This document shows, one piece after another, positions 46,135 to 46,755 of a stretch of 48,574 nucleotides of DNA. The first letter of the stretch is position 1, and each line of letters begins with the position of its first letter. The translations under genes were made by a program, and so were the position numbers. The DNA comes from a plasmid, in the sequence record NZ_CP120968.1, one strand, 5' to 3'. Below the pieces are notes generated by a model. The model did no database searches and had not been told where the DNA came from. It saw nothing but the letters and a program-made list of their open reading frames with translations.

Positions 46135-46412
46135 AATAGAACCTCCTATAGATATAAGCAAGCACTCTGATAAAATGAATCAATTACCGTATTTTTATGC
46201 TCAATGTTCTTACTAAGATGACTTACGTTAATACACTAATCCAGGTTAGAATGAAGTACACTACTGATTTAAAAATATGTTTCTAAAAGAATTATATCTC
46301 TGTATAATGAATCAAGTAGAGAAGTTAAGGCGGTGGCTATTTCCGATCGGAGGCGGTGCTTATGGTGTTAAACCTTTAAAGCCCATAAATCCTAACGAAA
46401 GGAGTAGCCTAA

Positions 46413-46517
46413 GTGTCCGTTTCGGACGCTTTACAATTAATGCTAGCTTTCGGTACATTTATCGTGGCCTTGATTGCATTAATTGTTGAGCTGATCAAAA
46501 GTCAGCAAAAAAAATAA
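46413..46517 (+). CDS. type I toxin-like peptide (VSVSDALQLMLAFGTFIVALIALIVELIKSQQKK, GTG start)
   Basis: AAAGGAG 8 nt upstream; hydrophobic helix plus lysine-rich tail; homologous to the peptides of the other three copies. Confidence 0.6.
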   Translation: MSVSDALQLMLAFGTFIVALIALIVELIKSQQKK

Positions 46518-46630
46518 TCCGTCTTAGCTTTTGGCAGGGCTAACGGATTATTTAATCTATTATTAAACTTTGCCACCGTCTTAAACGGCTCTACATGGGA
46601 AGCCCTGTTCTAGCGGGGCTTCCTTTTTCT
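46507..46630 (-). ncRNA. putative antitoxin sRNA, copy 3
   Basis: Minus-strand extended -10 and terminator (stem 46514-46551, U-run = plus A-run 46507-46514) overlapping the toxin stop codon. Confidence 0.45.
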
Positions 46631-46755
46631 GTTTACATTATAGCATGGCTATAACGGACTTGCGACTATTTTAAGTGTAGTTTCTCAAAGGCTAGAGAAA
46701 CTATTGTTCGTTCTTGAAAATATGTAGGAGCAACGGCCTAAGAACCATATATAGT

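What the first reader, a model, noticed from the sequence alone, without database searches (positions are those of the whole stretch)
46282..46647. Unannotated Fst/Ldr-like type I toxin-antitoxin locus with convergent promoters
About 365 bp contain the complete architecture of a par(pAD1)-type type I TA system.
- Plus strand: extended -10 TGTATAAT (46303-46310), leader, AAAGGAG RBS, then a 34-codon ORF (46413-46517). Its product has a single hydrophobic helix and a KSQQKK tail.
- A 110-nt 3' UTR ends in a hairpin plus U-run (46591-46628).
- The 5' segment ggcggtggc (46330-46338) is complementary to gccaccgtc (46572-46580) in the 3' UTR. This is a fold-back arrangement like hok mRNA.
- Minus strand: TGCTATAAT (reverse complement of 46636-46644) drives an antisense RNA of about 120 nt. 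It ends at a terminator that overlaps the toxin stop codon (stem 46514-46551, A-run 46507-46514).

The six-frame track instead shows an unrelated 70-aa ORF across this region.
Basis: partly seen in the sequence, partly recalled or inferred. Interest (0 to 1): 0.85.

Follow-up and report, generated by a model that had tools for sequence, protein, structure and literature searches.

The report
Known plasmid type I toxin-antitoxin module

Summary
The call [quoted passage not shown] holds. The family label does not.

- **Peptide:** the 34-aa product of 46413-46517 matches Pfam Hol_Tox (PF16935, 62 bits against a cut-off of 23). It has no Fst or Ldr match.
- **RNAs:** the antisense RNA is Rfam RatA (88 bits against 49). 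The toxin leader is Rfam rli28 (67 bits against 45).
- **Public records:** the 501-bp locus is 100% identical in at least 23 sequenced Lactobacillaceae plasmids. RefSeq annotates the ORF there as "putative holin-like toxin".
- **Published relatives:** a 91%-identical "rli28" on an L. casei plasmid is transcribed and its knockout improves growth. The rli28/RatA pair on Listeria plasmids is highly expressed. E. faecalis EF3263 has a ~110-nt antisense RNA and is toxic in E. coli.
- **Fold-back:** It is 96% paired in 55 related loci and shows compensatory changes. It corresponds to helix P1 of B. subtilis bsrG mRNA, so it is not new in kind either.
- **Copies:** the window holds four copies of the module, one of them decayed.

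Most likely function is plasmid addiction by antisense-triggered decay of a structurally silenced toxin mRNA. Interest is low.

The parts
46303..46308 (+). Toxin promoter -10 box TATAAT. TG abuts it at 46301-46302. The -35 is weak (TTTCTA at 46280-46285).
   Evidence: Sequence. A TAnAAT motif is present at this position in 55 of 63 related loci. The consensus promoter scan did not flag it.
46315..46629 (+). Predicted full-length toxin mRNA, about 315 nt. The 5' part is Rfam rli28; the 5' end is inferred from the -10 box.
   Evidence: Rfam RF01492 hit at 46294-46479, 66.7 bits against GA 45. MFE -125.4 kcal/mol, z -9.2. A homologue 91% identical over 46300-46482 is transcribed in L. casei Zhang (PMC8249650).
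46316..46337 (+). 5' arm of the long-range helix (P1-like): GUAGAG..GUUAAGGCGGUGGC.
   Evidence: MFE. Covariation: 96% of cells paired, 8 pairs with changes on both sides, 0 of 500 shuffles reach this. RNAalifold recovers it independently. Cognate against non-cognate arm duplexes.
46335..46344 (+). Anti-SD segment GGCUAUUUCC. It can pair with the SD and spacer (46401-46409) when the 3' arm is unavailable. It shares GGC with the long-range helix.
   Evidence: Constrained folds. The same type of helix is predicted in 11 of 11 lineages folded singly. RNAalifold did not recover it. Inference only.
46390..46404 (+). Local 4-bp hairpin UCCU/AGGA (46390-46393 with 46400-46403) that holds the Shine-Dalgarno AAAGGAG (46398-46404).
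   Evidence: MFE. Comparable to the 4-5 bp SD-sequestering stems of bsrG, bsrE and txpA (PMC6562991).
46411..46431 (+). Hairpin of 9 bp that encloses the GUG start codon.
   Evidence: MFE. The start codon has unpaired probability <= 0.1 in the 34-aa-type lineages; in the 29-aa type it is 0.45-0.94. L057, L072 and L077 show changed bases that keep the stem by eye (alignment).
46413..46517 (+). Toxin ORF, 34 aa, a single hydrophobic helix with a C-terminal KSQQKK.
   Evidence: Pfam PF16935 Hol_Tox, E 4e-17, 62.2 bits against 23.3. Third-position bias 96/43/251. RefSeq WP_006293514.1. PDB 7NS1 (SprG1-31 toxin helix) E 7e-4.
46507..46553 (-). Intrinsic terminator of the antisense RNA: hairpin 46512-46553 followed by U8 (A-run 46507-46514 on the + strand). 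It encloses the toxin stop codon.
   Evidence: Fold. 11-nt perfect inverted repeat I4. The stem covaries: CG in 39 sequences and UA in 12 at columns 248/281.
46572..46594 (+). 3' arm of the long-range helix, GCCACCGUCUUAAAC..CUCUAC. It is also the target of the RatA recognition stem-loop.
46597..46629 (+). Intrinsic terminator of the toxin mRNA (12-bp stem then UUUUU), 2 nt after the long-range helix.
   Evidence: Terminator scan. MFE.
46507..46630 (-). RatA-family antisense antitoxin RNA, about 124 nt, complementary over its whole length to the toxin 3' UTR and last codons. Both ends are inferred.
   Evidence: Rfam RF01776 hit at 46551-46640 (-), 88.1 bits against GA 49. Fold z -4.8. Homologous antisense RNAs have been detected experimentally (PMC2887945, PMC9484302).
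46637..46645 (-). Antitoxin promoter, canonical extended -10 TGCTATAAT.
   Evidence: Conserved in 50 of 61 related loci. The same motif precedes the other RatA copies at 3602-3610 (-), 24232-24240 (-) and 37114-37122 (+).
23885..24250 (+). Second copy of the module: 29-aa ORF 24015-24104 (MSVFQALSLMLLFGTFLIALLSYIDKHHK) and RatA at 24147-24235 (-).
   Evidence: Hol_Tox 51.7 bits; RatA 58.2 bits.
3253..3612 (+). Third copy, 96% identical to the second: ORF 3383-3472 and RatA at 3515-3605 (-).
37105..37401 (-). Fourth, decayed copy on the opposite strand. The ORF 37336->37247 is degenerate and the toxin promoter and 5' arm are missing. The RatA-like gene with its TGCTATAAT promoter (37114-37122, +) is kept.
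   Evidence: blastn 82% identity to copy 2. Sequence and ORFs. Below the Rfam gathering score.

Best explanation
The locus is a plasmid-borne type I toxin-antitoxin module of the TxpA/BsrG superfamily, in the BsrE/BsrH-like ('Hol_Tox') branch, paired with a RatA-family antisense RNA.

A promoter with a perfect -10 and a weak -35 makes a toxin mRNA of about 315 nt. Its 34-aa product is a single-helix membrane peptide. The mRNA is kept nearly untranslatable by structure. The Shine-Dalgarno sits in a short hairpin and the GUG start codon in a 9-bp hairpin. The 5' end is locked to the 3' UTR by a ~20-bp long-range helix next to the terminator, the equivalent of helix P1 of bsrG mRNA. That helix probably also protects the 5' end and so stabilises the mRNA.

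A stronger, canonical extended -10 promoter on the other strand makes an RNA of about 124 nt. This RNA is fully complementary to the toxin 3' UTR, including the 3' arm of the long helix and the stop codon. Pairing probably starts at the complementary hairpin loops and yields a long duplex. RNase III then cleaves the duplex, so the toxin mRNA is destroyed while the plasmid is present.

If the plasmid is lost, the short-lived antisense RNA disappears first. The stable toxin mRNA is then translated and the cell is damaged (post-segregational killing, or growth restraint).

**Shown here:** family membership of the peptide and both RNAs, the anatomy, conservation, and covariation of the long helix and the terminators.
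**Inferred from characterised relatives:** toxicity, RNase III decay, relative RNA stabilities and the plasmid-addiction role.
**Not settled:** whether antisense binding also tightens SD sequestration, as SR4 does on bsrG.
For: **Family membership**
- Pfam Hol_Tox, 62 bits against 23.
- Rfam RatA, 88 bits against 49, and rli28, 67 bits against 45, in convergent arrangement.
- NCBIfam type I toxin PepG1 is the best hit, though below its cut-off.
- PDB 7NS1, the SprG1-31 toxin helix, E 7e-4.

**The ORF is coding**
- Nucleotide differences by codon position are 96/43/251.

**RNA anatomy**
- Terminators lie on both strands.
- The antitoxin promoter is a canonical extended -10 conserved in 50 of 61 loci.
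- Long-range helix: 96% paired across 55 distinct loci against 35-52% for slid controls. Eight of 20 pairs changed on both sides, and 0 of 500 shuffles reach this.
- RNAalifold recovers the helix independently.
- Cognate arms average -31.6 kcal/mol against -22.9 for non-cognate arms.
- Many one-sided changes keep G-U pairs in the + strand sense, which argues for an RNA-level constraint.

**Setting**
- The window is a Lactiplantibacillus plantarum plasmid.
- The locus is 100% identical in at least 23 plasmids from 4 genera and related sequences occur in 752 plasmid records.

**Literature**
- TxpA-family loci occur in Lactobacillales; EF3263 has a ~110-nt RNA antisense to its 3' UTR and is toxic in E. 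coli (PMC2887945).
- bsrE/bsrH-like systems occur in Lactobacillus and on plasmid pBS72 (PMC6562991).
- RatA acts through RNase III (PMC3531473; PMC6562991).
- bsrG mRNA has helix P1 and a 4-bp SD stem (PMC3834814).
- rli28 and RatA are among the most highly expressed genes on Listeria plasmids (PMC9484302).
- Knockout of a 91%-identical rli28 on an L. casei plasmid improves growth (PMC8249650).
Against: - There are no expression, toxicity or stability data for this exact locus. Transcript ends are inferred from motifs, and the generic promoter scan flagged neither promoter.
- BsrE-type toxins are weak in B. subtilis, where only overexpression is toxic, so killing may be mild.
- bsrH mRNA, the nearest B. 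subtilis relative by published comparison, is not RNase III sensitive. The decay route may therefore differ.
- Four copies on one plasmid, one of them an antitoxin with a decayed toxin, is more than simple addiction needs and leaves room for cross-talk or other roles.
- The translation-control arm is not supported consistently. RNAalifold on the 5' parts did not recover the anti-SD helix. Predicted SD accessibility rises in some lineages and falls in others when the 3' UTR is blocked.
Confidence: 0.85

Rival explanations
1. This is the first reader's reading: an Fst/Ldr-family toxin in a par(pAD1)-type locus. There, direct repeats at the two 5' ends let the antitoxin pair with the toxin translation-initiation region, and the two RNAs share a bidirectional terminator.
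For: Transcription is convergent and the two RNAs overlap at their 3' ends. The toxin is a small hydrophobic peptide with a basic tail.
Against: - The peptide has no Fst_toxin or Ldr_toxin Pfam match at E <= 10; only Hol_Tox matches.
- The antisense RNA scores 88 bits on Rfam RatA.
- The repeats are inverted, not direct, so RatA carries the same sense as the toxin 5' arm.
- The RatA duplex with the toxin 5' region is no better than shuffles (-52.5 against -45.2 +/- 5.2; 18 of 200 shuffles reach it).
- Each RNA has its own terminator.
Confidence: 0.02
2. The plus-strand transcript acts mainly as a non-coding regulatory sRNA ('rli28'), as it is treated in the Listeria and L. casei literature. 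On this view the small ORF is incidental.
For: Rfam files it as an sRNA and the model ends inside the ORF. The L. casei knockout phenotype was interpreted as an sRNA effect (PMC8249650). The RNA is highly structured.
Against: The ORF is conserved across genera with strong third-position bias. It matches a curated toxin family and has a well-spaced SD. Relatives EF3263, BsrE and SprG1 are toxic peptides. A convergent RatA antitoxin makes sense only for a toxin mRNA.
Confidence: 0.05
3. The module is a real type I toxin-antitoxin system, but its role is not plasmid addiction. It might be stress- or stationary-phase-triggered growth restraint, or phage or plasmid exclusion, with the several copies giving graded or cross-regulated control.
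For: Homologues are stress- and growth-phase-regulated: rli28 is induced in biofilm, bile and stationary phase, and bsrE and bsrH are multistress-responsive. The window holds four copies including a lone antitoxin. The family is also chromosomal in many Lactobacillaceae.
Against: The peptide has no PADLOC defence-system match. The family is strongly enriched on mobilizable and conjugative plasmids. This rival differs from the best explanation only in biological role, not in mechanism.
Confidence: 0.25
4. The ORF is a phage-type holin, as the database name 'putative holin-like toxin' suggests, and is used for lysis.
For: The Pfam and RefSeq names. A weak match to PHROG 3488 'holin', E 4e-5.
Against: The context is a plasmid, between an FRG-domain gene and an MFS transporter, with no endolysin or phage genes nearby. 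The best PHROG match is a family of unknown function. The convergent RatA RNA marks a toxin-antitoxin module.
Confidence: 0.02

Closest known systems
rli28 / RatA pairs on Listeria monocytogenes plasmids (pLM80 and others) and on the Lacticaseibacillus casei Zhang plasmid
   Same: The two Rfam families occur in the same convergent arrangement, with a small Hol_Tox/BsrH-like ORF overlapping rli28 (PMC9484302). The L. casei 'rli28' is 91% identical to 46300-46482. All are plasmid-borne.
   Different: The Listeria paper only proposes a toxin-antitoxin role for its pair, and the L. casei paper treats the RNA as an sRNA (its ratA was only a 'positive control' for knockout). The window copy differs by a few percent in sequence, and this plasmid carries four copies.
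bsrE/SR5 and bsrH/as-bsrH of Bacillus subtilis (prophage P6, skin element; also plasmid pBS72)
   Same: The toxins are 29-30 aa, the same size class as the window's 29-aa copies. The review cited here groups Lactobacillus loci with BsrE/BsrH. The antisense RNA overlaps the 3' end, the SD is sequestered in a short stem, and the antitoxin acts by promoting decay (PMC6562991).
   Different: SR5 (163 nt) and as-bsrH (200 nt) are longer than the ~124-nt RNA predicted here. bsrH mRNA is RNase J1 sensitive rather than RNase III sensitive. I did not align B. subtilis sequences directly, so the relationship rests on the shared Pfam family and on the literature.
bsrG/SR4 of B. subtilis SPbeta
   Same: The toxin mRNA has a long helix P1 between its 5' end (nt 1-35) and nt 232-262, immediately before the terminator, and its SD sits in a 4-bp stem. 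The antitoxin binds the 3' arm of P1 (PMC3834814). That is the architecture found here. There is a weak Rfam BsrG match of 21.5 bits.
   Different: The BsrG Rfam score is far below its cut-off of 55. BsrG is 38 aa and belongs to the TxpA branch. The SR4-induced extension of the SD stem from 4 to 8 bp could not be shown computationally for this locus.
txpA/RatA of the B. subtilis skin element
   Same: The antisense RNA belongs to the Rfam family named after RatA. The genes are convergent, the overlap is at the 3' ends, and RNase III drives toxin mRNA decay.
   Different: TxpA is 59 aa and RatA is 222 nt, with only its 3' ~120 nt complementary to txpA. Here the whole ~124-nt RNA is antisense to the toxin mRNA and the toxin is 34 aa.
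sprG1/SprF1 of Staphylococcus aureus (PepG1; PDB 7NS1)
   Same: It is a TxpA-family type I toxin forming a single transmembrane helix. It gives the best NCBIfam hit (PepG1, 45 bits) and the only PDB sequence match.
   Different: The NCBIfam score is below the equivalog cut-off of 70. sprG1 encodes two peptides from alternative starts, which is not seen here.
par (Fst/RNA II) of pAD1, and hok/Sok of R1
   Same: Both are plasmid type I addiction modules. par is convergent. hok has a 5'-3' fold-back.
   Different: The peptide family is different. In par the antitoxin pairs with the toxin 5' region through direct repeats, which is not the case here. In hok the antisense RNA targets the 5' leader and activation needs 3' trimming; here the antisense RNA targets the 3' UTR itself.

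Membership tests
Pfam PF16935 Hol_Tox (TxpA/BsrG/BsrE-type small toxins) | Whole-protein score at or above the gathering cut-off (23.3 bits) | tested here: met
   62.2 bits, E 4e-17, profile 1-34 of 34. The 29-aa copies score 51.7 and 50.3 bits.
Rfam RF01776 RatA (antitoxin RNA) | Covariance-model score at or above the gathering score (49 bits), on the strand opposite to and downstream of the toxin ORF | tested here: met
   88.1 bits at 46551-46640 (-), full model 1-91. Other copies score 58.2 and 50.3 bits.
Rfam RF01492 rli28 (toxin mRNA leader) | Covariance-model score at or above the gathering score (45 bits) | tested here: met
   66.7 bits at 46294-46479 (+), full model 1-186. The 29-aa copies do not reach the cut-off.
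Type I toxin-antitoxin system (generic) | A small hydrophobic ORF under purifying selection, with a cis-encoded antisense RNA gene that has its own promoter and terminator | tested here: met
   Codon-position bias 96/43/251. Extended -10 and hairpin plus U8. Both are conserved in related loci.
Type I toxin-antitoxin system (generic) | The peptide is toxic when overproduced, and the antisense RNA neutralises it | not testable with these tools
   There is only indirect support from relatives: EF3263 is toxic in E. coli (PMC2887945), and knockout of a 91%-identical L. casei locus improves growth (PMC8249650).
bsrG/bsrE-type toxin mRNA architecture | A long helix (P1) between the 5' end and the 3' UTR just before the terminator, with the SD in a short stem | tested here: met
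   A 20-bp helix, 46316-46337 with 46572-46594, lies 2 nt before the terminator. It is 96% paired in 55 loci, with 8 pairs changed on both sides and 0 of 500 shuffles reaching this. The SD sits in the UCCU/AGGA stem.
bsrG/SR4-type dual-function antitoxin | Antitoxin binding melts P1 and extends the SD-sequestering stem, inhibiting translation | tested here: inconclusive
   An anti-SD helix forms in constrained and single-sequence folds. RNAalifold does not recover it, and predicted SD accessibility changes in both directions across lineages.
NCBIfam NF041589 PepG1 (equivalog) | Score at or above the curated cut-off (70 bits) | tested here: not met
   45.4 bits. It is related, but not an equivalog.
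Fst/Ldr toxin family (Pfam Fst_toxin, Ldr_toxin) | A match to the family profile | tested here: not met
   No such family was reported at E <= 10; only Hol_Tox was.
par(pAD1)-type locus | Direct repeats that make the antitoxin complementary to the toxin 5' region and translation-initiation region | tested here: not met
   The repeats are inverted. RatA carries GUAGAG..UUAAGACGGUGGC in the same sense as the toxin 5' arm. The RatA duplex with the toxin 5' region is not above shuffles.
hok/Sok-type fold-back control | 5'-3' pairing that blocks translation until 3' exonucleolytic trimming, with the antisense RNA binding the 5' leader or an overlapping reading frame | tested here: not met
   The 5'-3' pairing is present. 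However, the antisense RNA maps to the 3' UTR, and no mok-like overlapping frame is conserved. 3' trimming cannot be tested here.

The most novel reading that the evidence does not exclude
In this widespread plasmid family the toxin mRNA's own 5' end (GUAGAG-AAG-UUAAGGCGGUGGC) is a same-sense mimic of the antitoxin's recognition element (GUAGAG-CCGU-UUAAGACGGUGGC). The 5' end and RatA would then compete for one site in the 3' UTR. The displaced 5' end would continue into an anti-SD segment, giving a three-state RNA switch:
- nascent or RatA-bound: SD closed;
- free and full-length: P1 closed, mRNA stable and translatable.

That would extend the bsrG/SR4 dual-function mechanism to the whole rli28/RatA family and explain how a 3'-UTR antisense RNA can control translation about 170 nt upstream. 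The competition and the helix are supported by covariation. The translational consequence is not.
Probability: 0.3. Interest if true: 0.35.

Novelty: already known. Interest (0 to 1): 0.15.

Why it matters
It matters little for discovery. The peptide, the toxin leader and the antitoxin RNA all have curated family models. The ORF is annotated in RefSeq, and relatives have been studied in Bacillus, Enterococcus, Staphylococcus, Listeria and Lacticaseibacillus.

There are two practical points:
- Genome annotation of Lactobacillaceae plasmids usually names only a "putative holin-like toxin". It omits the RatA gene and the toxin-antitoxin relationship, so plasmid-stability determinants in food and probiotic strains go unrecognised.
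- "rli28" is filed and discussed as an sRNA, although it is the 5' two-thirds of a toxin mRNA. That may have led to misreading of the published knockout phenotype.

The comparative evidence for a P1-type long-range helix across 55 loci is a modest addition to what was probed biochemically for bsrG.

Tried and rejected
- The search for homologous proteins rejected the 34-aa query because it is under 40 aa. I used the search for related loci with an alignment of the three window peptides instead. Its pattern (L[SQ]LML[LA]FGT) biased the sample toward close relatives, so the deepest branches (Listeria, Enterococcus, Bacillus) were not in the covariation set.
- **Promoter scan uninformative.** The generic promoter scan found neither promoter because both have weak -35 boxes. 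It also missed the minus-strand terminator, whose loop is 10 nt.
- **par-type complementarity not supported.** The RatA duplex with the toxin 5' region is not better than shuffles.
- **Translation-control idea tested three ways.** The idea was that blocking the 3' UTR makes the freed 5' end sequester the SD.
  - Single-sequence folds support an anti-SD helix in 11 of 11 lineages.
  - RNAalifold on the 5' parts gave only a weak, different consensus of -2 kcal/mol.
  - SD accessibility changed inconsistently. I therefore kept this as a possibility only.
- **The 70-aa ORF 46277-46489 is not a gene**.
- **Defence-system and holin readings have no support**.
- **Gene conversion considered.** The arm covariation could in principle reflect DNA-level gene conversion between short inverted repeats. 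This is unlikely. The arms are interrupted and imperfect, and many changes preserve pairing only as G-U in the plus-strand RNA.
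Full report
**1. What is in the sequence**

The region 46280-46660 was read directly and its ORFs were listed.

- The 34-codon ORF 46413-46517 (+) starts with GTG. It encodes MSVSDALQLMLAFGTFIVALIALIVELIKSQQKK.
- AAAGGAG lies at 46398-46404, 8 nt upstream of the start codon.
- TGTATAAT lies at 46301-46308. 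The TG abuts TATAAT, so this is a perfect -10 but not the canonical TGnTATAAT.
- The plus-strand terminator is a 12-bp stem at 46597-46624 followed by TTTTT.
- On the minus strand, TGCTATAAT occupies 46645->46637.
- The minus-strand transcript ends in a hairpin (46512-46553) followed by eight U. That U-run is the A-run 46507-46514, which also encodes the last two lysines. The stop codon lies inside the stem.
It is part of two adjacent inverted repeats (I2 and I3).

**2. What it is**

- The peptide matches Pfam PF16935 Hol_Tox (62.2 bits, cut-off 23.3, E 4e-17). It matches nothing else at E <= 10, so it has no Fst or Ldr match.
- In NCBIfam the best hits are the type I toxin PepG1 (45 bits, below its cut-off of 70) and ComI.
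- The only PDB sequence match is 7NS1 (E 7e-4). This is the NMR helix of the S. aureus type I toxin SprG1-31 (PMC8309996).
- Rfam places RatA (RF01776) at 46551-46640 on the minus strand with 88.1 bits against a gathering score of 49. It places rli28 (RF01492) at 46294-46479 on the plus strand with 66.7 bits against 45. A weak BsrG match covers the ORF.
- blastn against PLSDB finds the 501-bp locus 100% identical in at least 23 plasmids of L. plantarum, L. pentosus, Pediococcus inopinatus, Lentilactobacillus buchneri and Loigolactobacillus backii. Related sequence occurs in 752 plasmid records. The ORF is annotated "putative holin-like toxin" (WP_006293514.1).
- The window itself is an L. plantarum plasmid. 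Its second half (24001-48574) matches NZ_CP151095.1 at 100% identity over 92% of its length.

**3. Evidence that the ORF is the gene**

- Among 36 other distinct 34-codon variants from 80 related loci, nucleotide differences fall 96/43/251 on codon positions 1/2/3.
- The 70-aa ORF that the six-frame track showed across the region stays open in only 8 of 57 loci. It has no Pfam match.

**4. RNA anatomy and comparative support**

The predicted 315-nt mRNA (46315-46629) folds to -125.4 kcal/mol, z = -9.2. The fold contains:
- a 20-bp long-range helix, 46316-46337 with 46572-46594, that ends 2 nt before the terminator;
- a 4-bp UCCU/AGGA hairpin holding the SD;
- a 9-bp hairpin enclosing the GUG start codon;
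- the antitoxin-terminator hairpin just after the stop codon.

On a MAFFT alignment of 55 distinct loci (A3) the long helix behaves as follows:
- It is 96.0% paired, against 35-52% when the partner is slid by 1-3 columns.
- 8 of 20 pairs show changes on both sides, against 2.8 +/- 1.2 in shuffles. None of 500 shuffles reaches this.
- By eye, the outer helix changes from GUAGAG/CUCUAC to CACGGAA/UUCCGUG, UGGAAA/UUUCCA, UAGCAAAC/GUUUGCUA and GCAAGG/CCUUGC in divergent lineages.
- RNAalifold recovers the inner helix independently. It also recovers the antitoxin-terminator stem, with CG in 39 sequences and UA in 12 at one pair.
- Cognate 5'/3' arm duplexes average -31.6 kcal/mol against -22.9 for non-cognate combinations. 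In the divergent lineages the cognate arm is clearly the best.
- Many one-sided changes keep G-U pairs in the plus-strand sense. This favours an RNA-level constraint over DNA-level homogenisation of the inverted repeat.

This helix is not new in kind. Jahn and Brantl showed by probing that nt 1-35 and nt 232-262 of bsrG mRNA form a long helix P1 one nucleotide before the terminator. The SD sits in a 4-bp stem, and SR4 pairs with the 3' arm of P1 (PMC3834814).

**5. Relation between the antitoxin and the 5' arm**

The repeats are inverted in the DNA. RatA, transcribed from the other strand, therefore carries GUAGAG-CCGU-UUAAGACGGUGGC. This has the same sense as the toxin 5' arm, GUAGAG-AAG-UUAAGGCGGUGGC. 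RatA and the toxin 5' end compete for one site in the 3' UTR. They cannot pair with each other. The RatA duplex with the toxin 5' region is not better than shuffles: -52.5 against -45.2 +/- 5.2, and 18 of 200 shuffles reach it. This is the opposite of par(pAD1), where direct repeats make the two 5' regions complementary (as summarised in PMC8167048).

**6. Mechanism**

*Best-supported chain.* This is inferred from characterised relatives.
- The antitoxin promoter is the stronger of the two. It is a canonical extended -10, conserved in 50 of 61 loci.
- RatA pairs over about 120 nt with the toxin 3' UTR, and the duplex is cleaved by RNase III. This is shown for txpA/RatA, bsrG/SR4 and bsrE/SR5 (PMC3531473; PMC6562991).
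- The toxin mRNA is also translationally muted by SD and start-codon hairpins.
- Loss of the plasmid removes the labile antisense RNA first, which allows toxin synthesis.

*Support from homologues.*
- EF3263 of E. faecalis has a ~110-nt RNA antisense to its 3' UTR and is toxic in E. coli (PMC2887945).
- rli28 and RatA are among the most highly expressed genes of Listeria plasmids. The authors proposed that the pair is a toxin-antitoxin system with a BsrH-like ORF (PMC9484302).
- Deleting an "rli28" on the L. casei Zhang plasmid improved growth (PMC8249650). That sequence is 91% identical to 46300-46482.
- Brantl and Muller note bsrE/bsrH-like systems in Lactobacillus and on plasmid pBS72.

*Untested extension.*
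- When the 3' UTR is blocked or absent, the W46k fold switches. GGCUAUUUCC (46335-46344, which shares GGC with the long helix) then pairs with GGAGUAGCC (46401-46409, the SD and spacer).
- An equivalent helix is predicted in 11 of 11 lineages folded singly, with different sequences.
- However, RNAalifold did not recover it.
- Predicted SD accessibility rose in some lineages and fell in others.
- I therefore treat translation control by RatA as possible, by analogy with SR4, but not shown. SR5 and RatA of B. subtilis do not do this.

**7. Other copies**

- Rfam finds two further RatA genes at 24147-24235 and 3515-3605.
- Each is paired with a 29-aa Hol_Tox ORF, at 24015-24104 and 3383-3472.
- blastn reveals a fourth, inverted and decayed copy at 37105-37401. 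It has a degenerate ORF and lacks the toxin promoter and 5' arm. It retains a RatA-like gene behind TGCTATAAT.

**8. Verdict**

It is a member of the Hol_Tox / rli28 / RatA group, which is catalogued in Pfam and Rfam, annotated in RefSeq and discussed in the literature. The fold-back corresponds to the known P1 helix of bsrG-type mRNAs. Novelty: already known. Interest: low.

Noticed in passing
window 37105-37401 (minus-strand module); TGCTATAAT at 37114-37122 (+): A fourth, decayed copy of the module. The ORF 37336->37247 (MSAFQTRSLILLFGPFLIALLSYIDKHHK) carries damaging substitutions, and the toxin promoter and 5' arm are replaced by unrelated sequence. The RatA-like gene and its extended -10 promoter are intact. 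It may be a lone antitoxin that could act in trans on copies 2 and 3.
   Followed up: partly
window 3253-3612 and 23885-24250: Two 96%-identical copies of a 29-aa variant of the module. A relative with an intact TGTATAAT promoter (first module in L048) has the outer 5'-3' helix GCAAG/CUUGC. These two copies have lost it, and their -10 reads TATAAA. Toxin expression from them may be weakened.
   Followed up: partly
window 46507-46517; related loci L014, L020, L031, L045-L049, L052, L054: The A8 run encodes Lys-Lys and precedes the stop codon. It is also the U-tract of the antitoxin terminator. In related loci its length, or the sequence next to it, varies. That shifts the stop and gives C-terminal extensions such as ...QQKKTALALAS and ...QQKNNPS. 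The run is a slippage-prone tract shared by two functions.
   Followed up: no
L048 (Limosilactobacillus antri NZ_GG700736.1), modules at about 83-400 and about 500-830: Two modules of different subtypes (29-aa type and 34-aa type) lie in tandem on one chromosomal scaffold. The subtypes therefore co-occur outside plasmids as well.
   Followed up: no
window 46294-46479 (Rfam rli28 hit): The Rfam rli28 model starts in the -10 box and stops inside the toxin ORF, so the 'sRNA' family is a truncated toxin mRNA. Its consensus structure does not contain the 5'-3' helix. The growth phenotype reported for the L. casei rli28 knockout may be a toxin effect.
   Followed up: partly
window 46512-46560 (+): On the plus strand the antitoxin-terminator hairpin is followed by a U-rich stretch (UUAUUUAAU). 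Some toxin transcripts might therefore end here, giving a form of about 245 nt that lacks the 3' arm of the long helix and most of the RatA target.
   Followed up: no
window 46677-46704 and 46755-46763 (+): A second terminator-like hairpin and a TGGTATAAT extended -10 lie between the module and the downstream MFS transporter gene (46796-48196). The module appears transcriptionally insulated from its neighbours.
   Followed up: no
window 45055-46161 (-): The upstream neighbour is a 368-aa ORF annotated in an identical plasmid as an FRG domain-containing protein. Its function is unknown, and whether it is linked to the module was not examined.
   Followed up: no
window 8980-8988 (+): Another exact TGCTATAAT lies here, but the sequence downstream shows no RatA-like similarity. 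It is probably an unrelated promoter.
   Followed up: partly
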